This document shows positions 6,447 to 38,692 of a stretch of 64,000 bases of DNA, one piece after another. Within the stretch, counting starts at the first letter, position 1; each line of letters opens with the position of its first letter. A program made the position numbers and the translations under genes. The notes beneath the pieces are model-generated. The model saw only the letters and a list, made by a program, of their open reading frames with translations, did no database searches and had not been told where the DNA came from. The stretch comes from an uncultured Bacilli bacterium (GTDB lineage Bacteria > Bacillota_I > Bacilli_A > RF39 > UBA660), in NCBI GenBank assembly GCA_944372055.1, contig CALVYF010000003.1, positions 8,435 through 72,434 of the forward strand, written 5' to 3'.

Positions 6447-8477
6447 CTAATTATAAATATATAATTCATGTTGTGCCCTAGTACAAGCCACATATAATAA
6501 ATTACGTTCATTACTCTTATATGAATTTTCTCGGTCATTATATAAAATTACACTATCAAATTCTAATCCCTTAGCTAAATATGCAGGAACCAAAATTAAG
6601 TCTCTTTTAAAGTTTTTAGTATCAAGTTTTACATAAGAAACAGATACATCATCTTTAATAAGATTAAAAATCTTTTCTGCTTCTTTATCATCTTTAGTTA
6701 TAATCGCAACACTAGAATAACTATTTTTTAAAGTATGGATATCTGAAATTAATTGTTCTTTTAAACTATCTAAATGTCTTCTAAAAACAACTGGTTTATG
6801 AGTATTCCTACGAATAACATTAACATGATTTAAATTTAAAATTTTATTTGTATACTCAATAATCTCTGGGGAAGAACGATAAGTTTTTAAAAGTTCCAAA
6901 TACTTACTATCATTTTTAAATATAGGTTTTAACTCCTCTAAAGAATCATAATGATAATAAGGATTAATATTTTGATTAACATCCCCTAAAATCGTAAAAT
7001 CACTTCTCGCAAAAATCTTGGAAATAATAATATATTGTAACTTATTATAATCCTGTGCTTCATCAATAACTACTTGCTTAATTTGTTGCTCATAAGGAAA
7101 GCCATCTAACACTCCTTTAATATAAGCAAATAATAAGGAATCTTCATAATATAAAGTTTTACGCTTAATAAATTTATCTATTTCTGTCTCTGTTAAGGTA
7201 ACCCTACAATAAGGACTAAGATAAAATCCTTTATAAATTTCTTTAAAATCACGCTTAAAATTAGCATGCTCTTTTAACAATTTACGAAAAGTGCCATTCT
7301 TCTTGCCACTACCACGATAAAAATTAGAAGACAACTTTTTAGCAATTTCATCTACTCTTTCAAATAAAGGTAATCTATCATACTTATAATGAAGTAAATG
7401 ATTAATTTCATCTTTATCTACATAATGGATTTCATCTTCATAAAAGGATTCTACAAACTCAGCATGTTCAATATAATCATTCAAATATAAATCTAAATCT
7501 TCAATAATTTCATCACTTTGTTTATATTTAATTAAATCAACATTAGGAACTTGATAAGTATAATACCTCGCAACAAAATCAGTAAATGCTTCCACTTCTT
7601 TGTATTCAGTAATGCTATAAGATAAATAATCATTAAAAGTTGTTTGAAGTGTATTATCTTCTCCTAAAGAAGGTAATACATCAGAAATATATTCCGTAAA
7701 AATAGGATTAGGAGAAAATATTAAAATGTTATTACTAGTCAAATTTTCCAAACGATATAATAAAAATGCAATTCTATGTAAAGCAACCGTTGTTTTTCCA
7801 CTTCCCGCAATTCCTTGAACAATTAGATTATGATCTTCTAAATTACGAATCACTTGATTTTGTTCTTGTTGGATTGTATTAACTACATTTTTCATCTTAT
7901 CACTAGACTCATGAGCCAACACTTCCTGTAACACCTCATCATCAATATTTAAAGAGTTATCAAAGACACCAACCAATTTACAATTTTCTATTTTATATTG
8001 CCTTTTTCTTTTTAATTCCCCAAAATATTCTCCTCCAGGTGCAATATAAGAACAAGGACCAACTTCATAGTCATAAAATAAACTACAAATTGGACTACGC
8101 CAATCATATAAAATATTATTAAAATTATCATCTTTTAAATAGGTAAGAGAAATATAAATATTCCAAATTTTGCCACGCTCATCTTTAAAAACAATAGATG
8201 CAAAATAAGGTTTCGTTTTAATCTGACATAATTTCTTAAAATAACGTTGCTTCTGTAATACTTTTTCGGCTTCTTGTTCAGTTGCTGCCATAACCTGACT
8301 CATTTCACCATCATCAAAACTACTAGAATTCTCCCACATCATCTTTTTAAATTCGACAAAGTCTTCCTCATCTTGATATACATCTTTTCCTAAGTCATCT
8401 AAAGTATCACCTAATAATTGTTGCACTTTAGATAAAATTTTTTCTTCTTTTAAATACTCATCTTTAGAAATTCCCAT
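6447..8477 (-). CDS. helD: HelD-type UvrD-like helicase (RNA polymerase recycling ATPase)
   Basis: N-terminal HelD signature (KPYFASIVF...IYISL...DWRSPICSLFYDYE). Walker A QGIAGSGKTTVALHRIAFLLY, Walker B VIDEAQDY, C-terminal GLEFDSVILY...LYVACTRAQHEL. SD AGGAGG. Confidence 0.8.
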   Translation of the reverse strand: MGISKDEYLKEEKILSKVQQLLGDTLDDLGKDVYQDEEDFVEFKKMMWENSSSFDDGEMSQVMAATEQEAEKVLQKQRYFKKLCQIKTKPYFASIVFKDERGKIWNIYISLTYLKDDNFNNILYDWRSPICSLFYDYEVGPCSYIAPGGEYFGELKRKRQYKIENCKLVGVFDNSLNIDDEVLQEVLAHESSDKMKNVVNTIQQEQNQVIRNLEDHNLIVQGIAGSGKTTVALHRIAFLLYRLENLTSNNILIFSPNPIFTEYISDVLPSLGEDNTLQTTFNDYLSYSITEYKEVEAFTDFVARYYTYQVPNVDLIKYKQSDEIIEDLDLYLNDYIEHAEFVESFYEDEIHYVDKDEINHLLHYKYDRLPLFERVDEIAKKLSSNFYRGSGKKNGTFRKLLKEHANFKRDFKEIYKGFYLSPYCRVTLTETEIDKFIKRKTLYYEDSLLFAYIKGVLDGFPYEQQIKQVVIDEAQDYNKLQYIIISKIFARSDFTILGDVNQNINPYYHYDSLEELKPIFKNDSKYLELLKTYRSSPEIIEYTNKILNLNHVNVIRRNTHKPVVFRRHLDSLKEQLISDIHTLKNSYSSVAIITKDDKEAEKIFNLIKDDVSVSYVKLDTKNFKRDLILVPAYLAKGLEFDSVILYNDRENSYKSNERNLLYVACTRAQHELYIYN

Positions 8478-8624
8478 ACTACCTCCTATTTATTCTTTAA
8501 AAACTAAGAAACGCCAAAAAACTACATAATCTATGCAGTCCCCCACTACTATGTAATTTTTAAGCAAACGTCTATTTCAATATAACATAATAAGATTGCT
8601 AATTCAAGAAAAAAACAAATAATC

Positions 8625-9104
8625 TTAATTTTTTCCAATTTGCTTACCTATTTTTTTATTACTAGATACAAATTGATTTCTAATTTCTAAACAAGATGAA
8701 ACAAAATCTAATGTAGCAGCAAACATATCACTAGATTCTTCAAATACATGAACTCTAGAATTATATGGAGCAACACGTTTACGACCAGACGGAGTCATAT
8801 AAGTAACCATTTTTCCCATAGGACATTCATCTACAAGATTTTGTGGATAAAACAACTGATATTCATTAGGAAACCTCAAAACTCTGCTCACTGGCTCAAA
8901 TGTTCCCAATATAAAGTGATATTCATCTAACTTTCTTTTTCCAGCCTCACGATATTCTAACGTAACTGTTGCTGAAATAGGATCCCCTTTGACAAGTTTA
9001 ATTTCTCCTACATCAAAAATATTAAAATACATATCTCCAACTATTTCTGGTATTTCTTTATTTTGTCTAAAAACAACATTGATTACTGGATAATCTTTTT
9101 CCAT
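8625..9104 (-). CDS. Hypothetical 159-aa protein
   Basis: ORF trimmed to the ATG at 9104 (MEKDYPVINVV...), with GGGAG 9 nt upstream. No motif recognised. Confidence 0.5.
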   Translation of the reverse strand: MEKDYPVINVVFRQNKEIPEIVGDMYFNIFDVGEIKLVKGDPISATVTLEYREAGKRKLDEYHFILGTFEPVSRVLRFPNEYQLFYPQNLVDECPMGKMVTYMTPSGRKRVAPYNSRVHVFEESSDMFAATLDFVSSCLEIRNQFVSSNKKIGKQIGKN

Positions 9105-9160
9105 AAAACAAAACTCCCAACACACGATTATAAAAATAATGAATAAATTAGGAATCCAGA

Positions 9161-30586: not shown

Positions 30587-31471
30587 ATGAAAAAAATTAA
30601 ACCATCAAACATCATTTTACTTGTATTAATCTGTCTAACACTCTTATATTTAGCTAATTCCGTATTCATTACAAAACAGATTCTAATCTATACAAAACTC
30701 TTTATAGAAAAACTTTTTCCTGCAAGTTTTTTATTCTTTACTTTATCTACTTTACTAATAGAATATAATGCTATTGAAACCTTAACAAAATTAATACATA
30801 AAAATGGAGCTACTCTATATGTTACACTAATGAGTTTAATTAGTGGTTTTCCCAGTGGGAGTATCTATACAACTGAATTATTAAAAAAAGGAATAATCAC
30901 AGAAAAAACAGCAAACTATCTAATCAAATTTACTCATTTCCCAAATCCTGTATTTATTTTAGGACCAGTATCTTTATTATTTCCAAATAAAACTTATACT
31001 TATAAAATACTAATTAGTATCATACTAGCAAATTTTATAATAGCTTTTATTACAAGAACAAAAGAAAAAGAAATAATAAAATACACCTCGAAAACTCCTA
31101 CAGATTTTTCAAAAACACTAACGAAAGCCACTCTAACCTCACTTAAGACAATTATTTTAATTTATGGAACTTCACTATTTCTATACCTAATCATAACTAT
31201 AATTAATCATTATTATAAATTACCATTAATCAGCTATGTATTATTAAATGGTATATTCGATTTAACAAATGGAGTATTTTTAACAAGTTTGATTACAAAT
31301 CCTATAACAAAAAGCATCATTATTATATTCTTCTTTTGTTTTGGTGGAATATCAGTACACATGCAAACAAAAAGTATCATTGCTGATACTTTAACAAAAT
31401 ATAAAAACTTCATTATAGGGCGATTACTGCAAACAGTAATAGCCATACTTATATTTTTATTGATTACTTAG
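30587..31471 (+). CDS. YlbJ-like nucleoside-recognition-domain integral membrane protein
   Basis: Polytopic protein divergent from the ylbL-like gene, as in Bacillus. The assignment rests on family resemblance only. Confidence 0.55.
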   Translation: MKKIKPSNIILLVLICLTLLYLANSVFITKQILIYTKLFIEKLFPASFLFFTLSTLLIEYNAIETLTKLIHKNGATLYVTLMSLISGFPSGSIYTTELLKKGIITEKTANYLIKFTHFPNPVFILGPVSLLFPNKTYTYKILISIILANFIIAFITRTKEKEIIKYTSKTPTDFSKTLTKATLTSLKTIILIYGTSLFLYLIITIINHYYKLPLISYVLLNGIFDLTNGVFLTSLITNPITKSIIIIFFFCFGGISVHMQTKSIIADTLTKYKNFIIGRLLQTVIAILIFLLIT

Positions 31472-33111
31472 TCAAAATTACATTTAACATCATTTTCAAT
31501 ACATTCCAAATAACGATCAATTAAACTAGTATATTTGTCCTTATTCATTCCAACAACAATAAATGCATGTGGAGCAGATTCTACTTTCCAATAATGATGT
31601 AAAGCAGTATTAGCAGCAGTAGCTTTTTCTAAAACAACCTCAGAATTACTTGGCAATACCGTGGTATCACTTTGTCCATGAATAATTAAAACTTTATCAC
31701 TAGCTTGAAAATTTCTATTACCAGCAAAAGAATCTTGATAAATATCAAAATCATCATCAGTCAATCCAACATCAACTAAGTCTATAATTAAAAACTTTAC
31801 TAAATTGTCAACAAGACCATCATCAGTTTCTTTTTTCTGAATATTAGGAAATAACTGTTGATACCAAGTAGAAGAACTAAAATCAATATTGTTTTTAGAC
31901 ATTTCATTCATAATGTTTTGATAAGATTGTTTAACACACTCTTCATAAGATAATCCAGAACAAGCAGACGAACTAGTAGAATTAACAACTTGTCCTGCTA
32001 TCTGATAATAATCAGGATATTTTTCTTGTAATGTAGACTCTAACTGATCATAAGAAATATTTCCTGAAATAAAGTTACTGATTTCTGTATCAGATACTGG
32101 CATTTGCAAATCATTTAACATTCCTTTTAACTTATCTTTAAACTCTTGTAAAGAAGAACCTACTTTCTCTAATGTAGATGTAAGATTTGAAATATTAGCC
32201 ATCTGAAGAGGCCCTTTAATAACATTCATCATAGAAGTATATCCACAATCATCTACAAATCCCTTAACATGATACTCTTTTCTTAAACTATCAGAAAAAT
32301 CTGGATTAGTAGCAAGTTGTAATGTTGTAGCACCACCTAAAGAAACACCATGAACAACTAAATTATCAACATCATAGTTTTCGTTCAAATAACGAATCCA
32401 ATCATAACTATCCAAACTTTCAAGATATCCCATGGCAACTTTACCATCACTATCTCCCTGTCCACGAAAATCAGGAGCAATAATATTATAACCATTTTCT
32501 GTATACATACTACCCATGCTTTGATACATAAATTTACCACTTAACGTATTACCATGAAGTAAAATAACCCAGTTACTACTATTTTTATCTTTAACATAAA
32601 TATTAGCACTCAATTTTTTACTTGTACCATCTAAACAATATTCACTATCATCTCCATACTTACTACACACACTACTAGAACGAATAGTAACAACTTCACT
32701 AGATACAGATGAATCAGTCTTAAGACCTAATCCTGCGAAAAAGTCATCAGCAGAATTTAATAACTTTTCAAGTTCTGCTTTTAACTCTGCAGTAGTAGTA
32801 GCACTACTATCAGAAATAGTATTTAAAATATCCAAAGATAAAACTCCTACGGCATTTCCATCCTTATATAAATCTGACATATCCATAACAGTAGATGACA
32901 AATCTTGTTTAAAATCACTCAAAGATAAATCCCCATCTACTCGCTTCAAATAATCAGTATACCCATCAACAAACTTCACAGAAGTAGCATCCATTTTATC
33001 TATTTGTACAGTTTTATGACTAGTAAAAAAGTATATAGCTAAAACTGCAACAACTAAAACAAGAGCTACTATCACAACTATTTTTAATATTCTTTTTAAA
33101 TTATCACTCAT
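31468..33111 (-). CDS. Membrane-anchored alpha/beta-fold hydrolase (third gene of the FHA-ABC/kinase operon)
   Basis: N-terminal TM segment, LLHGNT oxyanion region, nucleophile elbow HGVSLGG, later IIHGQSDT and APHAF. ATGA overlap with the kinase stop at 33108-33111. Confidence 0.8.
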   Translation of the reverse strand: MSDNLKRILKIVVIVALVLVVAVLAIYFFTSHKTVQIDKMDATSVKFVDGYTDYLKRVDGDLSLSDFKQDLSSTVMDMSDLYKDGNAVGVLSLDILNTISDSSATTTAELKAELEKLLNSADDFFAGLGLKTDSSVSSEVVTIRSSSVCSKYGDDSEYCLDGTSKKLSANIYVKDKNSSNWVILLHGNTLSGKFMYQSMGSMYTENGYNIIAPDFRGQGDSDGKVAMGYLESLDSYDWIRYLNENYDVDNLVVHGVSLGGATTLQLATNPDFSDSLRKEYHVKGFVDDCGYTSMMNVIKGPLQMANISNLTSTLEKVGSSLQEFKDKLKGMLNDLQMPVSDTEISNFISGNISYDQLESTLQEKYPDYYQIAGQVVNSTSSSACSGLSYEECVKQSYQNIMNEMSKNNIDFSSSTWYQQLFPNIQKKETDDGLVDNLVKFLIIDLVDVGLTDDDFDIYQDSFAGNRNFQASDKVLIIHGQSDTTVLPSNSEVVLEKATAANTALHHYWKVESAPHAFIVVGMNKDKYTSLIDRYLECIENDVKCNFD

Positions 33112-35108
33112 TTTTCATCCTCCTCATAAATAGCTTGAGCTTTTTTTTCTTCATATTTTTGACATTTTTTCTCATTTAACTTATATAATCTTGAACATGT
33201 ATAGCGGACCGTTGGTTTTTTAAAATCATCTTTCAAGCAGGTAGTACCCCCAAGGACATAACCATCAGGGCAATGATAAATTCCAAGTGCATCTGAAGAT
33301 ATAGTACCATAGCACATATTTCCTTTCAAAACCGTATCTGTAGTACACATATATTTAGGTGTAGCATCAATAGTAGCAGAAGATGTGCACATATTGCCAA
33401 CCGATAAATAACCAGGTGGACAATTATAAGTAGCAATAGCATTAACAGTTTCATTAGCACTGCGAATACAATTACCTTTACCATCAGAAGTTCCAGTAGT
33501 ACAAGTATAGCTAGCACTTGCAGCATAAGTATAATGACATTTTCCATCAGAATAGCTATAAGTTCCTCTAGTACAACTAGTTCGATATCCACCCCACCAA
33601 CCGCCACTAGTAGTTGGATTAGATACAATATCACAAGTAGTACCACTCAGTGTTCCTCCTAAAGAACAACCATAAGTAACAATAGCCTTAGAAGAAGTAG
33701 TTTTTGTAGTAGTACACTTATCACCCTTCCTGACATAAGAAGAATCAGGGCAACTATAACTAACAGATGCTTCCTTACTATTAGCAGTTACACATTTAGT
33801 ACCAGCCAAAACATAATTATCTGGACAATAATATATAAGTGCTGCCTCTGCACTCTCTTCTCTAACACATTTACTACCAGACAACGTAAACCCATCTGCA
33901 CACTTATACGCAAATGTTGGACTCTTAGTATTTTGATTTACACAAACGCCTTCATTCAAAATATATCCATCCTCACAATAATAGTTCTCTCTAGCAGCAA
34001 TTTCTTCTACAATTTTGACACATTTCTTTCCCTTTAAAGAATAGTTTTTAGGACACTGATAATACCCTTTAACACATATTCCTCCCTTATTTACATAGCC
34101 ATTATCACAACTACGATTAAAAAGATAAACTATAGAAGAAGAGATTATGCAAAGTAACAAAACAACGCCAAGAAGAAGTCCCTTTATAATATCCTTCTTA
34201 GTATATCTCCGACGAATCCCATCAATATTGGTATACAACTTATTGCTAAGTGCTAGATGATGAACATCTAACGTGGAGTCCAAATGGAACAATTCAACTT
34301 TTGCCTTCACAGAATTCTTAACGCCAGTTAAGGCATTCAAATCTTTTAGGACCTCATCAACACTTTGATATCTTTTTTCAAGATCAAATTCCAACAAATG
34401 TAAAACAATTTTCATAAGGCCTCGATGAACTCCTTTAATTCTAGGAATCTTAGCTCCTTGATTTCTCTTCTCTATTGCCTGATATATATTAATTTTATGG
34501 TTTTCAAAAGGTAATTTACCACCATTCAATAATACATACATAACAAGGCCCAGAGAATAAAGATCAGACCTACCATCCACTTTACCTTCTAACACTTCAG
34601 GTGCCATATAACTAGGGGTTCCAAGGAAATGTTTCTCATCCTTAGAAACACTAAGACCAAAATCCCCTAACTTATATTCACTATTAGAGTCCACAAATAT
34701 ATTACTCAACTTAACATCTCTATGAACTAAATTATTTTCATGAAAAACCTTCAAAGCATTACAAATATCTTTACCTAATCGAACGACTTCGCTTTCTGAA
34801 ATAGTCTTATCCTGATAATAAGATTTAATATCCTTCAACAATTCCATAATAATAAAAATAGAATTGCTCTTCTCTTCATTATAAAATTCATAGTAACAAA
34901 CAATATTTTTATGGTTATTAACCACTTGAATAATATGAATTTCATTCTTAAGTTGCTCAACTAAAGCTACATTAGTCGAAAAATCACTATAGTCAATATA
35001 TTTTAATACACATTCTCGCTCAACATCTTGAATTTTTTTGCGAATTAAGTATACTTTCGAATACTGTCCTTCACCTATTTTTCTAATAATTTGCCATTGA
35101 TTATTCAT
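33108..35108 (-). CDS. Hanks-type Ser/Thr protein kinase with one TM segment and a Cys-hairpin-repeat ectodomain
   Basis: Kinase motifs GEGQYSKVY, VLK, HRDVKLSNIF, DFG, GTPSYMAPE. TM segment LLLGVVLLLCIISSSIVYLF. The ~335-aa ectodomain carries about 14 repeats of C-x2-G-[YF]-x-L-x-G-x2-C. Confidence 0.88.
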   Translation of the reverse strand: MNNQWQIIRKIGEGQYSKVYLIRKKIQDVERECVLKYIDYSDFSTNVALVEQLKNEIHIIQVVNNHKNIVCYYEFYNEEKSNSIFIIMELLKDIKSYYQDKTISESEVVRLGKDICNALKVFHENNLVHRDVKLSNIFVDSNSEYKLGDFGLSVSKDEKHFLGTPSYMAPEVLEGKVDGRSDLYSLGLVMYVLLNGGKLPFENHKINIYQAIEKRNQGAKIPRIKGVHRGLMKIVLHLLEFDLEKRYQSVDEVLKDLNALTGVKNSVKAKVELFHLDSTLDVHHLALSNKLYTNIDGIRRRYTKKDIIKGLLLGVVLLLCIISSSIVYLFNRSCDNGYVNKGGICVKGYYQCPKNYSLKGKKCVKIVEEIAARENYYCEDGYILNEGVCVNQNTKSPTFAYKCADGFTLSGSKCVREESAEAALIYYCPDNYVLAGTKCVTANSKEASVSYSCPDSSYVRKGDKCTTTKTTSSKAIVTYGCSLGGTLSGTTCDIVSNPTTSGGWWGGYRTSCTRGTYSYSDGKCHYTYAASASYTCTTGTSDGKGNCIRSANETVNAIATYNCPPGYLSVGNMCTSSATIDATPKYMCTTDTVLKGNMCYGTISSDALGIYHCPDGYVLGGTTCLKDDFKKPTVRYTCSRLYKLNEKKCQKYEEKKAQAIYEEDEK

Positions 35109-35109
35109 A

Positions 35110-37488
35110 TTACTTCTTCACCTCGAGCTGCTTTTTCAAAATAAAATAACAAATACCAATAAGTACTAAAGCCATCACACAAATAATGATAATATCTTCA
35201 TAGAAATGTTTAGAAGTAAACTCAAAAAACAATTCAGCTTCTCTCTTATATCCTGGAACAACATCTTGAATCAAACTAACCATATTATTCATATCATTCG
35301 TTGTACCTAATAATTCTAAAGACCAACGACATAACATAAAATAAGAAAGAAATTCAGTAATTCCATCAAGTTCAAATAACATTCCACTAAATAGCATCTG
35401 TGGTACAAGTAAAATAGGAATATACGCCATCGCAGCACTAGGATTACTAGCTAAAGTGGAAACCACTAAACCAATAGTAGATGCTGCAAATATAGTAAGA
35501 CTAGATTCAATTACCATTTCTAAGTCCCATCGAAAAACAACACCATCAACAGGTACTGCAATAAACAGTTTCAAAGAGAATATAAGTAAAAATGCCTGGA
35601 TAATAGATAAAAACAAAAGAACAATCACTTTAGACGATAAATAAGCCGAGAGTCGCAAATTTGCCATATATTCTTTTTTTAAAATTACTCGTTCTTTACA
35701 AATTTCTTGAATAGAATTACCTAAACCAATATAAGTACCAGCAAGCGAAATAGAAAATAAAATAGATTTAGTAACATCATAGTACTCAAACAAATCATTA
35801 GTAATAATCAAAGAAAGTAAAAACGAAATAACCGGAGCTTGAAATAATAATAAAAACGTTTGAAATCTATTATTAAATATTGTTTTTAAATATCTCCTGA
35901 CCAATGTAGAACACTGCGAAAAGAAATGCTTTTTAGAAACTTTTACTTTCTCTGTCTTCTCTTCATTTTCTTTTATTCTAATTTCCTCCTGAGAATCAGT
36001 AAATTTTTGATGCCAATGAGAAACATCTTCTTCAATCAGATTATATATATCAACAAAATCATCTACTCCAAAGAATTCTTTAGCACCATTAGGAGAACCA
36101 TCATAGCAAACTCTCCCACCCCTTCCAAAAAACACAACTTTGTCGCACAAATGTAAATTCAAAGTATTATGCGTAACTAAAATAACTGTACGACCATCCT
36201 CACTCATCTTCCTCAAAGTTTTCATAATACTTCTTTCAGTTCCCGGATCAAGTCCACTAGTTGGTTCATCTAAAAAGAAAAGTCTAGGATCTGCAAGCAA
36301 TTCAATCGCAATACTAGTTCTCTTCCTTTGACCACCAGATAATCGCTTAATTTTAACGTTTTTTGCATCAGTCAAATCAACGATTTCTAAAACTTCTTGA
36401 ATTCTTCTCTCTTTCTCAATAGAACCAACCTCGTCAGGCATCCTCAAATTAGCTGAATAAGATAACATATCAGATAAAGTTAAATCCGTAAAAACAATAT
36501 CATCTTGAGGAACGTAACCAATAATATTTTTTAATGTCTCATAATTTTGATAGAGATCCACTCCATTGATTAAAACTTTTCCTTTCGTAGGTTTCATAAG
36601 ACCAGAAATACAAGACATAAAGGTAGACTTCCCTGCTCCACTTCCTCCGACAAAAGCAACAAATTCTCCAGGATTAATCTGCATATTAATATGTTGAGCT
36701 ATATCTTTTTTCTTTCCTCTTACTCGAACTGTCTTACAAACATCTTGTGCAATTACTTTAACACCTTTTTCAAAAGACTGATATAATATCTTAGCTTGAA
36801 AATAAATAATAGAAACCCCTTCAAAAGAGATAACACTATGATCAGTCAACACAACTTCACCATGAATTAAACGACCATTAACACAAACCTCTTTCTCTAA
36901 AGGAAAAAGACTAAAATGTTTATCTTTCTTCTTGATAATGACATAATCAGGAGTCAAATTATTATAAGTCAATAAAATATCACATTCATTTTTATTACCA
37001 ACTAAAACATCAGATTTAGTATCAATAGAATAACTACTCCAGTTCCTTAAAACATCATCAAACCTAACAAGAATCAAGGCACCTCCCTCAACTCTACTTT
37101 CTTCATTGTCAATACGTATAATATCATTGACTTCAATTTTCTTTTTCTGATACACTTCATCATTGATGAGAATACCATTTTTACTATCATTATCAACAAT
37201 CCACAAATCATCACCAATTAACTCAAAATACCCATGAAATTTAGAAACAAATAAAGAAGAAATAACAATATCATTAGTTTCATCTCGACCAAAAGTAATC
37301 TTATTCTTTTTAAAATCAGACACAACAAAATTACTAGCTTCTCCATGAACAAATACAGAAATCGTCTTAATAGAACTAGTTGCTTCATTGGAAATCTCAC
37401 TAGTAGCTTTCGGCACTGCATTACGTATTAAATTTTTCTTTCCCACATTATAAAAATCAAATAATGTATTCTTTACGTTAACTCCCAT
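35110..37488 (-). CDS. FHA-domain(s) + ABC ATPase + ABC-2 permease fusion (Rv1747-like exporter architecture)
   Basis: FHA-1 is ITFGRDETNDIVISSLFVSKFHGYF...DNDSKNGILIN, followed by a second degenerate FHA-like segment. Walker A GGSGAGKST, signature LSGGQRKR, Walker B FFLDEPTSGLD. Six C-terminal TM helices. Confidence 0.85.
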   Translation of the reverse strand: MGVNVKNTLFDFYNVGKKNLIRNAVPKATSEISNEATSSIKTISVFVHGEASNFVVSDFKKNKITFGRDETNDIVISSLFVSKFHGYFELIGDDLWIVDNDSKNGILINDEVYQKKKIEVNDIIRIDNEESRVEGGALILVRFDDVLRNWSSYSIDTKSDVLVGNKNECDILLTYNNLTPDYVIIKKKDKHFSLFPLEKEVCVNGRLIHGEVVLTDHSVISFEGVSIIYFQAKILYQSFEKGVKVIAQDVCKTVRVRGKKKDIAQHINMQINPGEFVAFVGGSGAGKSTFMSCISGLMKPTKGKVLINGVDLYQNYETLKNIIGYVPQDDIVFTDLTLSDMLSYSANLRMPDEVGSIEKERRIQEVLEIVDLTDAKNVKIKRLSGGQRKRTSIAIELLADPRLFFLDEPTSGLDPGTERSIMKTLRKMSEDGRTVILVTHNTLNLHLCDKVVFFGRGGRVCYDGSPNGAKEFFGVDDFVDIYNLIEEDVSHWHQKFTDSQEEIRIKENEEKTEKVKVSKKHFFSQCSTLVRRYLKTIFNNRFQTFLLLFQAPVISFLLSLIITNDLFEYYDVTKSILFSISLAGTYIGLGNSIQEICKERVILKKEYMANLRLSAYLSSKVIVLLFLSIIQAFLLIFSLKLFIAVPVDGVVFRWDLEMVIESSLTIFAASTIGLVVSTLASNPSAAMAYIPILLVPQMLFSGMLFELDGITEFLSYFMLCRWSLELLGTTNDMNNMVSLIQDVVPGYKREAELFFEFTSKHFYEDIIIICVMALVLIGICYFILKKQLEVKK

Positions 37489-37603
37489 ATCAATACCTAC
37501 TTTTATCTTAAAATAAGTATACCAAAAACAACAAAAAAAAACTACTAAAATTTTAAATTGATTTATTTCCTATCTTAAAAGCAAGTAAAAAACAGTTCAT
37601 TTC

Positions 37604-37635
37604 AAAGAAAAAAACTAAGAAAAATTTTCTTAGTT
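37604..37635 (-). terminator. Rho-independent terminator ending the minor-pilin transcription unit
   Basis: Stem AACTAAGAAAA (37613-37623) pairs with TTTTCTTAGTT (37625-37635). A long T-run follows on the minus strand. Confidence 0.65.
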
Positions 37636-37645
37636 AAAGCTATAA

Positions 37646-38065
37646 TTACATATTTATTAACTGATCACAAGATTTAACTGAACCACCGTTTAGAGTTTGA
37701 CCTTTCTTAGAAATAAGATAATTATAGCAAGCAGAGCCTTCCCAGCAACGGAACCCTCCATATAATTCAGCGTTATTGAACCAAGGCCATCCTTTATTAC
37801 TTCCCGTCCAACATTGCCAATTAACCCTTGATGTTGTCCACCAAATAGTAACATCAAAGTCATAAGCAGAATTAGCAAACGAACTTGCAAAGTTCTCAGC
37901 ACTCGATCCCATTCCAACAAACCAACAGATAGAATCTCCACCTCTTTCGCAAGCAGCTCCAGATTTAACTTCACCAGAATCCGGTGCAGGCTCTGGATCA
38001 GGTGTAGGTTCTGGATCAGGATCAGGAGCAGGATCAGGTTCAACAGAAGAACCAGAAGAAGAACC
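37646..38065 (-). other. In-frame continuation of pilin gene 38066-38692 beyond its TAG: Gly/Ser + Pro/Asp linker and a Trp/Cys-rich ~110-aa module (track ORF 37646-37912 is its distal part)
   Basis: The 153 nt between the TAG (38066-38068) and the ATG at 37912 are 51 sense codons in the pilin frame, encoding GSSSGSSVEPDPAPDPDPEPTPDPEPAPDSGEVKSGAACERGGDSICWFVG. There is no convincing SD before the ATG at 37912. Confidence 0.55.
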
Positions 38066-38692
38066 CTAACGATAATTAATTGGTGAAACGATATCAATAG
38101 AATATCTAGACCCCAAATCTGGATGATGTAATGTTATTCGCAAAGAAAATACTCGATTTGCAGTAGAAATATCAACTTCATTAATACGAAGTGCAGAAAT
38201 AGTATGTGTACCACTGCTATGAAGGTTAGGAATTGCCTCATTTCCTAAATCTGGCAATGGATATTCGACAACATCTCCCGGAAGACCATAACTAATACTA
38301 AACGAATCACTTGCATCTTTTGCGATACCCGCCTTAACGCAAAGCTCATCTTCTTCTCCAGTATCTGCAGCGTTACACCCAAATACCTGCTTTACTTCCA
38401 AAACACGTTTACTTCCATCTCGAAGTGTAAATGTAACACGATACCCTGTACCATCACTCATAGAACTAATTTCAGCCCCAGCTAATCCTATTTTAATAAG
38501 ATCATCCTGAATATCCTTAGTAAGTAAATCTCGATAAGTAACTAAGCTTAACTTATATGAAGAAATAGTCTCTTTATCTTTTAAAGCAACAATTCCATCA
38601 TATAAAGAAACTACAATCACCGCAACAATCAAAAAGGTAACTAAAATTTCAATAGCCGTCATACCCTTATTGTTTAGTTTGCGCCTTACCAT
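38066..38692 (-). CDS. Type IV (minor) pilin-like protein, 208 aa as annotated to the TAG
   Basis: Class III signal MVRRKLNNKG|MTAIEILVTFLIVAVIVVSLY with Glu at +5. SD GGAGGTGG. Its start overlaps the upstream pilin stop (ATGGTAA). Confidence 0.8.
   Translation of the reverse strand: MVRRKLNNKGMTAIEILVTFLIVAVIVVSLYDGIVALKDKETISSYKLSLVTYRDLLTKDIQDDLIKIGLAGAEISSMSDGTGYRVTFTLRDGSKRVLEVKQVFGCNAADTGEEDELCVKAGIAKDASDSFSISYGLPGDVVEYPLPDLGNEAIPNLHSSGTHTISALRINEVDISTANRVFSLRITLHHPDLGSRYSIDIVSPINYR

What the first reader, a model, noticed from the sequence alone, without database searches (positions are those of the whole stretch)
31468..37488. Tightly coupled FHA-FHA-ABC exporter / Ser-Thr kinase / membrane hydrolase operon, with PknF-Rv1747-like logic in a low-GC Gram-positive
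The three genes are packed with a 1-nt gap (35108/35110) and an ATGA overlap (33108-33111). Gene 1 fuses a canonical FHA domain, a second degenerate FHA-like segment, an ABC ATPase and a six-helix ABC-2 permease. Gene 2 is a Hanks kinase with a large ectodomain. Gene 3 is a membrane-anchored alpha/beta hydrolase with a GxSxG motif (HGVSLGG). FHA domains bind phosphothreonine. In Mycobacterium tuberculosis, the double-FHA ABC exporter Rv1747 is encoded next to PknF and is regulated by it. The same arrangement here suggests a kinase-gated exporter. The ectodomain would sense a signal and the hydrolase could process the exported or sensed molecule. No cognate PP2C phosphatase is adjacent.
Basis: partly seen in the sequence, partly recalled or inferred. 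Interest (0 to 1): 0.6.

Follow-up and report, generated by a model that had tools for sequence, protein, structure and literature searches.

The report
Kinase-coupled FHA exporter with surface esterase
A small uncultured gut bacterium carries a conserved three-gene membrane module: a receptor-type protein kinase, an export pump with a phosphothreonine-reading domain, and a surface-anchored esterase; it looks like a new variant of the PknF/Rv1747 kinase-regulated exporter of Mycobacterium tuberculosis, and what it exports is unknown.

Summary
Three minus-strand genes, 35110-37488, 33108-35108 and 31468-33111, are joined by TAA-t-ATG and by an ATGA overlap, each preceded by a ribosome-binding site. 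They encode an FHA-FHA-ABC exporter, a Hanks kinase and a membrane-anchored serine hydrolase.

All three genes are adjacent in 13 inspected loci from related uncultured Bacilli. The ABC and kinase genes always abut; the hydrolase lies on either side. Among 41 related genomes, the same four carry all three genes and the rest carry none.

- **FHA1:** it keeps the phosphothreonine-binding residues in 120 of 120 homologues.
- **FHA2:** it is a true FHA relic that has lost them (Arg to Asn and others) in this subclade.
- **Kinase:** every kinase keeps one juxtamembrane threonine in a T-[LIVM]-x-[IVLF] motif, a plausible FHA1 docking site.
- **Ectodomain:** 13 Cys-x10/11-Cys hairpin repeats with no Pfam family and no PDB fold match. 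The same repeat occurs in some TraN-family and RHS-associated proteins.

The module differs from Rv1747: it has no long phospho-acceptor linker between the FHA domains, the gene order is reversed, and it has the extra ectodomain and hydrolase.

Verdict: a new variant of a known kind. Substrate and signal are unknown and nothing was tested biochemically. Interest 0.5.

The parts
35110..37488 (-). FHA-FHA-NBD-ABC2 half-transporter gene (792 aa)
   Evidence: ORF; Pfam FHA, ABC_tran and ABC2_membrane; Walker A, signature, Walker B and H-loop are invariant in the alignment.
37111..37299 (-). FHA1 (residues 64-126), canonical pThr reader with G67-R68, S82..H85 and N104-G105
   Evidence: Pfam E 1.4e-14. 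It aligns to the GarA and Rv1747 FHA structures. The GR/S..H/NG residues are invariant in 120/120 homologues.
36775..37053 (-). FHA2 relic (residues about 146-238): FHA-derived but with the pThr-contact residues lost (G164-N165; T..Y; NG loop deleted)
   Evidence: Alignments. hhalign gives 99.5% to the canonical FHA2 profile and 91% to the FHA1 profile.
36064..36753 (-). ABC ATPase domain (residues about 246-475)
   Evidence: Pfam ABC_tran 6.8e-33. The best NCBIfam hit is the ABCG-type TIGR00955. PDB sequence hits are to ABCA, ABCB and ABCG NBDs.
35113..35916 (-). ABC-2 type membrane domain (residues about 525-792)
   Evidence: Pfam ABC2_membrane 1.2e-18. Five strong hydrophobic helices plus one weaker helix.
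35106..35126 (-). ABC/kinase junction: GAGGTG ribosome-binding site, TAA, 1 nt, ATG
   Evidence: Read directly from the sequence.
33108..35108 (-). Receptor-type Hanks Ser/Thr kinase gene (666 aa)
   Evidence: ORF. Pfam Pkinase 9.9e-46. G-loop GEGQYSKV, K36, E56, HRD, DFG and APE are all present.
34263..34274 (-). Juxtamembrane T279-L-D-V motif, proposed FHA1 docking phosphosite
   Evidence: The Thr is invariant in all kinases aligned (7/7, 33/33) within T-[LIVM]-x-[IVLF], in an otherwise variable linker. Its role is inferred.
34122..34178 (-). Kinase transmembrane helix (residues 311-329)
   Evidence: Hydrophobicity scan; predicted as a helix in the AF2 model.
33111..34112 (-). Ectodomain (residues 333-666): 13 tandem Cys-x10/11-Cys beta-hairpin repeats, 26 Cys
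   Evidence: Repeat list. The Cys are invariant across homologues. AF2 gives an all-beta model with pLDDT 88.8. No Pfam family and no PDB fold match. The same repeat occurs in TraN-family and RHS-associated proteins.
33108..33128 (-). Kinase/hydrolase junction: GAGGAGG ribosome-binding site and ATGA stop/start overlap
   Evidence: Read directly from the sequence.
31468..33111 (-). Membrane-anchored extracytoplasmic alpha/beta serine hydrolase gene (547 aa)
   Evidence: ORF; Pfam. S257, D482 and H515 are invariant in 35 sequences. AF2 pLDDT 88.1 and pTM 0.84. Fold matches are to esterases and lipases.
33034..33090 (-). Hydrolase N-terminal signal-anchor helix (residues 8-26)
   Evidence: Hydrophobicity scan; AF2 helix 3-30.
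32332..32352 (-). Nucleophile elbow H-G-V-S257-L-G-G
   Evidence: Invariant in alignment A4.
37489..37645 (-). Upstream intergenic region. It holds an AT-rich hairpin (CTAAGAAA-att-TTTCTTAG, 37615-37633) followed by a T-run that ends the pilin-like genes, and a weak promoter-like site at 37550-37578.
   Evidence: Sequence read. The promoter scan found no more sites than chance, so this is only suggestive.

Best explanation
This is a self-contained accessory three-gene envelope module. It consists of a single-pass receptor kinase, an ABCG-like (NBD then ABC-2 TMD) half-transporter with an N-terminal FHA reader, and a type-II membrane-anchored extracellular serine esterase/lipase.

Proposed mechanism:
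1. The 13-repeat Cys-hairpin ectodomain engages an extracellular ligand or surface. (Inferred.)
2. The kinase autophosphorylates, or is phosphorylated, on the invariant juxtamembrane Thr279 in the T-L-D-V motif. (Inferred.)
3. FHA1 of the exporter, which keeps every pThr-binding residue, docks on this site. Tight translational coupling of the two genes would supply the partners together. (Inferred from the anatomy.)
4. Docking, and possibly further phosphorylation, switches the exporter on. This follows the model of PknF positively regulating Rv1747. (By analogy.)
5. The exporter moves an amphipathic or lipid-linked envelope molecule. The co-inherited extracellular hydrolase de-esterifies that molecule, or generates the ligand. 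(Weakest step, inferred only from co-inheritance and fold.)

FHA2 is a structural relic in this subclade. Dephosphorylation would be done in trans by one of the two PP2C phosphatases encoded elsewhere.
For: - **Gene anatomy and coupling:**
- **Adjacency:** all three genes are adjacent in 13 inspected loci with varying flanking genes. The ABC and kinase genes always abut (4-nt overlap to 3-nt gap). The hydrolase lies downstream in 5 loci and upstream in 8.
- **Co-occurrence:** all three genes have identical presence and absence in 41 related genomes. Only G000, G003, G006 and G013 carry them.
- **FHA domains:** the FHA1 GR/S..H/NG residues are kept in 120/120 homologues. FHA2 is degenerate in 13/120, including the window.
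- **Candidate docking site:** the juxtamembrane Thr is invariant, with an aliphatic or aromatic residue at +3.
- **Kinase:** the window kinase has the complete catalytic motifs.
- **Hydrolase:** the Ser-Asp-His triad is invariant, conserved Cys pairs and an N-terminal anchor fit an outside location, and fold matches are to esterases and lipases.
- **Other phyla:** adjacent kinase plus FHA-ABC pairs occur in other phyla.
- **Precedent:** PknF phosphorylation activates Rv1747; FHA-1 is essential and FHA-2 is dispensable (PMC3138270).
- **Phosphatases:** a PASTA kinase/PP2C pair and a second PP2C lie elsewhere in the genome.
Against: - No biochemical or expression data exist.
- The Rv1747-type phospho-acceptor linker is absent, so the target of the kinase is a guess.
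- One related lineage (L101; P0138, P0139) has HNN in place of HRD and lacks the APE motif; P0139 (L101) also lacks DFG. It is a pseudokinase, yet it keeps the Thr motif and the ectodomain. Kinase activity of the partner is therefore not universally required.
- L021/L022 keep the ABC and hydrolase genes without an adjacent kinase, L023 lacks the hydrolase, and L112 has the hydrolase alone.
- Nothing indicates the substrate. Hydrolase fold hits are generic.
- No Dsb-type oxidase was found to form the 13 putative disulfides.
Confidence: 0.55

Rival explanations
1. Scaffold model. The three proteins form a constitutive membrane complex. The receptor acts mainly as an extracellular binding or positioning subunit. 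FHA1 reads a phosphothreonine written by another kinase, such as the housekeeping PASTA kinase, or one on another protein, as Rv2623 does for Rv1747. The adjacent kinase's own catalysis is secondary.
For: The pseudokinase lineage retains the ectodomain (51% identity) and the Thr motif. Most family kinases are non-RD. A second, PASTA-type kinase with a PP2C exists in the genome. For Rv1747, other kinases substitute for PknF, and Rv2623 binds FHA-1 (PMC3138270; PMC5549992).
Against: 42 of the 44 family kinase clusters with a kinase domain, including the window's, keep the catalytic Asp, Lys, Asn and the Asp-Phe of DFG. This argues for selection on catalysis.
Confidence: 0.2
2. Antimicrobial sensing and detoxification module, functionally analogous to Bce-type ABC/sensor pairs. 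The receptor kinase detects an envelope-active compound, the ABC pump removes it, and the extracellular esterase inactivates it, for example by opening an ester or lactone bond.
For: The module is accessory, patchy and mobile-looking: 3 of 20 congeners carry it, the flanks vary, and recombinases sit beside it in L102. ABC-2 pumps and esterases are typical resistance parts. L020 lies next to a bacteriocin-type C39 exporter.
Against: No family-level match to any resistance ABC or esterase reached a curated cut-off. The large repeat ectodomain suggests a macromolecular ligand rather than a small molecule. No consistent link to biosynthetic or immunity genes was seen.
Confidence: 0.12
3. Anti-phage defence system related to kinase/ATPase systems such as MADS or PD-T4-6.
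For: PADLOC domain-level hits: the kinase domain to mad6 (195 bits) and to PD-T4-6 models, and the ATPase to mad3 (104 bits). The distribution is patchy.
Against: The hits cover only the generic kinase and ABC-ATPase domains. The hydrolase has no PADLOC hit. Two of the three proteins are largely extracellular, and the ABC protein has a full ABC-2 permease. No methyltransferase or nuclease partners were seen.
Confidence: 0.03

Closest known systems
PknF / Rv1747 of Mycobacterium tuberculosis (kinase-activated FHA-FHA-ABC exporter)
   Same: One polypeptide with tandem N-terminal FHA domains, an NBD and an ABC-2 type TMD. A co-oriented Hanks kinase is adjacent. FHA-1 is canonical and apparently the important reader, while FHA-2 is dispensable: experimentally in Rv1747 (PMC3138270), and evolutionarily here, where it is degenerate in 13/120 homologues.
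   Different: Here the gene order is ABC then kinase. The linker between the FHA domains is about 10 residues, without the Thr-150/Thr-208-type acceptor sites or the disordered linker that drives Rv1747 clustering (PMC9312465). The kinase carries a 335-aa Cys-hairpin repeat ectodomain. A third, co-inherited extracellular hydrolase is present. The host is a low-GC uncultured Bacilli lineage. Sequence similarity to the Rv1747 FHA domain is only marginal (6cah, E 0.054).
PASTA-type Firmicute kinases (PrkC/StkP) with PrpC/PhpP phosphatase
   Same: Single-pass Hanks receptor kinase with a repeat ectodomain. A PP2C phosphatase is available in the cell.
   Different: There are no PASTA repeats and no adjacent PP2C. 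The genome has a separate PASTA kinase/PP2C pair on contig C1, so this is a second, accessory kinase.
Repeat arrays of some TraN-family (PF06986) mating-pair-stabilisation proteins and RHS-associated proteins
   Same: The same roughly 25-residue unit, [YF]-x-C-x2-G-[YF]-x-L-x-G-x2-C, in long tandem arrays. Region-only phmmer gives E values down to 1e-62, and pairwise BLAST against P0160 gives 1e-32. There are faint cEGF/Sushi-like matches.
   Different: The window protein lacks the TraN C-terminal domain. The repeats are fused to a kinase through a TM helix. Only the repeat type is shared, not the protein family.
Esterase/lipase-type alpha/beta hydrolases (for example thermophilic lipase TTL, Pf2001 esterase, cinnamoyl esterase LJ0536, S. 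aureus FphH)
   Same: Alpha/beta-hydrolase core with a Ser-Asp-His triad and a GxSxG elbow. Foldseek probability is 1.00 with E about 1e-8 to 1e-7.
   Different: It has an N-terminal membrane anchor, an extra N-terminal helical domain (residues 42-128), a roughly 140-residue helical cap insertion, a conserved DDCGY motif and conserved Cys pairs. No curated family threshold is reached.

Membership tests
PknF/Rv1747-type kinase-regulated FHA-ABC exporter | Single polypeptide: tandem N-terminal FHA domains + NBD + ABC-2 membrane domain | tested here: met
   Pfam hits. FHA2 is shown to be FHA-derived by hhalign. Relatives show two Pfam FHA hits.
PknF/Rv1747-type kinase-regulated FHA-ABC exporter | Hanks Ser/Thr kinase encoded in the same operon | tested here: met
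   1-nt gap with a ribosome-binding site. The two genes abut in 14 inspected loci: the 13 with all three genes, at a 4-nt overlap to a 3-nt gap, and L023, at 7 nt. The order is reversed relative to pknF-Rv1747.
PknF/Rv1747-type kinase-regulated FHA-ABC exporter | FHA-1 retains the pThr-contacting Arg and Ser (and the His and Asn-Gly) | tested here: met
   R68, S82, H85 and N104-G105 are present; invariant in 120/120 homologues. Aligned to GarA.
PknF/Rv1747-type kinase-regulated FHA-ABC exporter | FHA-2 competent for pThr binding | tested here: not met
   The window has G-N, T..Y and a deleted NG loop. FHA2 is canonical (GRSH) in 93 of 120 relatives, and the Arg is kept in 107.
PknF/Rv1747-type kinase-regulated FHA-ABC exporter | Long disordered linker between the FHA domains carrying the kinase's phospho-acceptor threonines | tested here: not met
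   The linker is about 10 residues with no conserved Thr. Compare Thr-150 and Thr-208 in Rv1747 (PMC3138270).
PknF/Rv1747-type kinase-regulated FHA-ABC exporter | Kinase phosphorylates the transporter, or FHA-1 binds the phosphorylated kinase | not testable with these tools
   There is only a candidate site: the invariant T279 in T-[LIVM]-x-[IVLF].
PknF/Rv1747-type kinase-regulated FHA-ABC exporter | Orthology to Rv1747 by sequence | tested here: inconclusive
   The Rv1747 FHA structure 6cah matches FHA1 at only E 0.054. The closest Actinomycetota FHA-ABC (L029) is 43% identical over the part of the core its contig covers (273 residues) and has an upstream kinase. Rv1747 itself was not compared at full length.
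Catalytically active Hanks-type kinase | G-loop, VAIK Lys, alphaC Glu, HRD Asp, Asn, DFG and APE | tested here: met
   GEGQYSKV, K36, E56, H129-R-D131, N136, D149-F-G and APE are present.
PASTA kinases (PrkC/StkP) | PASTA repeats in the ectodomain | tested here: not met
   The ectodomain has no PASTA hit even at E<=10. The genome's PASTA hits lie in other ORFs, including the other kinase on C1.
Alpha/beta-hydrolase serine hydrolases | Ser-Asp-His triad on an alpha/beta-hydrolase fold | tested here: met
   S257, D482 and H515 are invariant. AF2 model pLDDT 88. Foldseek probability 1.00 to esterases and lipases.
ABC-2 / ABCG-like (type V) exporters | NBD N-terminal to a six-helix ABC-2 membrane domain | tested here: inconclusive
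   The NBD-TMD order and the Pfam ABC2_membrane hit are met. The simple scan finds 5 strong helices plus 1 weaker helix. No topology predictor was available.
TraN (F-type T4SS mating-pair stabilisation, PF06986) | Conserved TraN C-terminal domain | tested here: not met
   The ectodomain has no PF06986 hit. The similarity lies only in the repeat array N-terminal to the TraN domain of P0160.
MADS / PD-T4-6 anti-phage kinase systems | Full-length match to system components and presence of partner genes | tested here: not met
   The PADLOC hits cover only the kinase domain (2-261 against 50-314 of 659) and part of the ATPase. The hydrolase has no hit.

The most novel reading that the evidence does not exclude
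The 13-unit Cys-hairpin array may be a cell-surface or contact receptor. The same repeat type forms the arrays of some TraN-family and RHS-associated surface proteins. Alternatively, since no Dsb-type oxidase was found, it may be a thiol/disulfide redox sensor. Either reading would make this a new class of bacterial receptor kinase that couples recognition of another cell or host surface, or exposure to oxidant, directly to an FHA-tethered exporter and a secreted-face esterase. It would not depend on the Rv1747-style linker phosphorylation.
Probability: 0.12. Interest if true: 0.75.

Novelty: new variant of a known kind. Interest (0 to 1): 0.5.

Why it matters
Rv1747/PknF is the only well-studied example of a Ser/Thr-kinase-gated ABC exporter, and its substrate is still uncertain. 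This module shows the same pairing in a distant, small-genome gut lineage, in a stripped-down form:
- one working FHA domain;
- no disordered linker;
- a single invariant candidate docking threonine on the kinase.

It also has two extra conserved extracellular parts: a new repeat ectodomain and an esterase.

The module gives a compact system, testable by heterologous expression, for asking how an FHA domain couples a receptor kinase to an ABC pump. It also provides natural 'mutants': a subclade with a dead FHA2 and a pseudokinase lineage. The uncurated Cys-hairpin repeat is flagged as a recurrent bacterial surface module.

Tried and rejected
- **Foldseek on the ectodomain model against PDB:** no match better than E 0.18, with TM about 0.1. 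No fold assignment was possible.
- **Pfam at E<=10 on the ectodomain:** only noise, such as the EB module at E 0.067.
- **Promoter/terminator scan:** it found as many promoter-like sites as in shuffled sequence (34 against 35.0), so it was uninformative.
- **Pattern-based scan of genome contigs:** most of the 80 returned loci were generic ABC ATPases. Only 11 were FHA-ABC relatives.
- **Class-wide search with the ectodomain:** two weak hits (G353, G395) turned out to be other repeat proteins with no kinase, ABC or hydrolase nearby.
- **NCBIfam:** no family reached its curated cut-off for any of the three proteins.
- **PADLOC:** only generic domain hits, so the defence reading was rejected.
- **Hydrolase fold and sequence hits:** these are generic. 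No substrate class could be assigned.
- **Chance adjacency:** rejected on the conservation evidence.


Full report
**1. The observation**

The window carries three minus-strand ORFs exactly as described: 35110-37488 (792 aa), 33108-35108 (666 aa) and 31468-33111 (547 aa).

- The first junction reads GAGGTGAAGAAG-TAA-t-ATG.
- The second junction reads GAGGAGGATGAAAA-ATGA.

Both downstream starts therefore sit on or next to the upstream stop and have a ribosome-binding site inside the upstream gene. This is the classic layout for translational coupling.

Upstream, a 157-bp intergenic region follows an AT-rich hairpin plus T-run that ends a pilin-like gene set. Downstream, the hydrolase stop overlaps the 3' end of a convergent ylbJ-like gene by 4 nt. 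The three genes therefore look like one unit. The promoter scan itself was uninformative.

**2. Domain content**

*Gene 1 (ABC exporter).*
- Pfam finds FHA (64-126), ABC_tran (265-411) and ABC2_membrane (525-720).
- The best NCBIfam similarity is to ABCG-type transporters, far below the cut-off.
- All ATPase motifs are conserved.

*Gene 2 (kinase).*
- It has a complete Hanks kinase domain: GEGQYSKV, K36, E56, HRD, N136, DFG and APE.
- It has one TM helix (311-329) and a 335-aa ectodomain.

*Gene 3 (hydrolase).*
- It has an N-terminal anchor helix and an alpha/beta-hydrolase core.
- S257 (in HGVSLGG), D482 and H515 are invariant in 35 sequences.
- The AF2 model is confident (pLDDT 88.1, pTM 0.84).
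- The model matches esterases and lipases generically.

**3. The two FHA domains**

FHA1 has the canonical G-R, S-x-x-H and N-G residues and aligns to the GarA and Rv1747 FHA structures. These six residues are identical in all 120 closest homologues.

The segment at 146-238 is not found by Pfam at normal thresholds. In congeners, however, the aligned segment is a clear second FHA domain. The window and 12 other sequences form a subclade in which three things have changed:
- Arg is replaced by Asn.
- The Ser..His pair is lost.
- The Asn-Gly loop is shortened.

Profile-profile comparison shows that the relic is still FHA-derived: 99.5% to canonical FHA2 and 91% to FHA1.

This fits the experimental finding that Rv1747 FHA-1 is essential while FHA-2 is dispensable. 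It also fits the finding that Arg and Ser are the two essential pThr contacts (PMC3138270).

**4. Is the linkage conserved?**

Yes.

*Adjacency.* All three genes are adjacent in 13 loci: the window, three congeners and nine metagenome or MAG contigs. Some of these are from closely related genomes, so they are not all independent.
- The ABC and kinase genes always abut, from a 4-nt overlap to a 3-nt gap.
- The hydrolase is downstream in 5 loci and upstream in 8.
- Flanking genes differ from locus to locus.

*Exceptions.*
- L023 has the ABC and kinase genes only.
- L021 and L022 have the ABC gene and a nearby divergent hydrolase, with no kinase.
- L112 has a stand-alone hydrolase.

*Co-occurrence.* Across the window's genome and its 40 sampled relatives (20 in the same genus), exactly the same four genomes carry the ABC orthologue, the kinase ectodomain and the hydrolase. 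The other 37 carry none.

*Wider sampling.* In an even sample of 400 Bacilli species the ectodomain type was found in no other kinase. Named homologues come from 'Bacilli bacterium' and 'Candidatus Coprovivens' MAGs.

*Within the genus.* The window's version is only about 50% identical to those of its congeners. It differs from them in gene order and in FHA2 status. This suggests an accessory, possibly horizontally moved, module.

**5. A candidate docking site**

The juxtamembrane linker of the kinase is poorly conserved, apart from one threonine (T279). That threonine is present in every homologue examined, always in the pattern T-[LIVM]-x-[IVLF].

From established knowledge of FHA specificity (not tested here), a pThr with an aliphatic residue at +3 is a classical FHA ligand. 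By contrast, the linker between FHA1 and FHA2 is only about 10 residues and has no conserved Thr. The Rv1747 mechanism, which phosphorylates Thr-150 and Thr-208 in a long disordered linker and drives clustering (PMC3138270; PMC9312465), therefore cannot be copied here.

My best model is that FHA1 docks on phospho-T279 of the kinase.

**6. The ectodomain**

The ectodomain consists of 13 units of [YF]-x-C-x2-G-[YF]-x-L-x-G-x2-C. All 26 Cys are invariant.
- AF2 gives a confident all-beta, elongated model (pLDDT 88.8, pTM 0.39).
- No PDB fold match was found.
- No Pfam family matches.

The same repeat type forms long arrays N-terminal to the TraN domain in some TraN-family proteins, and it occurs in RHS-associated proteins. 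This points to a role in surface or macromolecule binding, but that is inference.

The 93%-complete genome shows no DsbA-like, DsbB or VKOR gene. How the cysteines become oxidised is unexplained.

**7. Genomic context of signalling**

- The genome has a second kinase with PASTA repeats next to a PP2C, plus one further PP2C.
- Apart from the ABC protein, the only other FHA-containing ORF is a 1524-aa one.
- Dephosphorylation in trans is therefore feasible, and this kinase is an accessory one.

**8. Complications**

- In one related lineage (L101; P0138, P0139) the kinase has HNN in place of HRD and lacks the APE motif; P0139 (L101) also lacks DFG. It nevertheless keeps the Thr motif and a 51%-identical ectodomain. 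This keeps a scaffold model alive.
- Most family kinases are non-RD.
- Adjacent kinase plus FHA-ABC pairs, with the kinase upstream, also occur in Actinomycetota, Acidobacteriota and Clostridia MAGs. The pairing itself is therefore widespread and not new.

**9. Comparison and verdict**

The module works like PknF/Rv1747 in its general logic. It fails two of that system's mechanistic features: the phospho-acceptor linker and a competent FHA-2. It adds two conserved extracellular components.

No paper in the searched library describes such a pair in Firmicutes. I class it as a new variant of a known kind.

The exported substrate, the ligand and the actual phosphorylation events are all unknown. 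Rv1747's own substrate is only suggested to be PIMs (PMC5549992).

My count of 13 units and the absence of PASTA agree with it.

Noticed in passing
window 37646-38692 (-): The pseudopilin-like gene (N-terminal methylation motif) at 38066-38692 ends at an in-frame TAG. The same frame stays open for 139 more codons: a Gly/Ser and Pro-Asp-rich linker, then a Trp/Cys-rich C-terminal segment. This could be read-through, a pseudogene or an assembly error.
   Followed up: partly
whole genome G000: No DsbA-like (PF13462), DsbB (PF02600) or VKOR (PF07884) gene was found in the 93%-complete genome. Yet the kinase ectodomain has 26 invariant cysteines and the hydrolase has conserved Cys pairs.
   Followed up: partly
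L101:8355-10289 (+) and proteins P0138, P0139: In one lineage of the module the kinase is a pseudokinase. It has HNN in place of HRD and no APE; the L101/P0139 form also has GID in place of DFG and a degenerate G-loop. It keeps the juxtamembrane Thr motif and a 51%-identical ectodomain.
   Followed up: partly
L109 (G395:C6) 7856-10207 and L110 (G353:C1) 7399-9612; proteins P0158-P0237: The same Cys-hairpin repeat occurs in other, non-kinase proteins of the same bacterial family. It also occurs in TraN-family and RHS-associated proteins of Proteobacteria. It appears to be a widespread, uncurated extracellular repeat.
   Followed up: partly
window 31468-31471: The hydrolase gene and the convergent ylbJ-like sporulation membrane protein gene (30587-31471, +) overlap by 4 nt at their 3' ends.
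   Followed up: no
L013 12740-14383, L015 4924-6384, L023 5749-6891, L014 4229-5323: In several congener and related loci the module sits beside cell-envelope genes: an M15 D-Ala-D-Ala peptidase with SH3/Big_2 domains, a PBP5-type carboxypeptidase and UDP-galactopyranose mutase. This is a weak hint of an envelope role and is not consistent across loci.
   Followed up: no
G000:C16:20062-20241 (-): The only other FHA-containing ORF in the genome is 1524 aa long. It was not examined. An FtsK/EssC-like secretion ATPase is a guess based on the faint FtsK_SpoIIIE_N similarity of tandem FHA regions.
   Followed up: no
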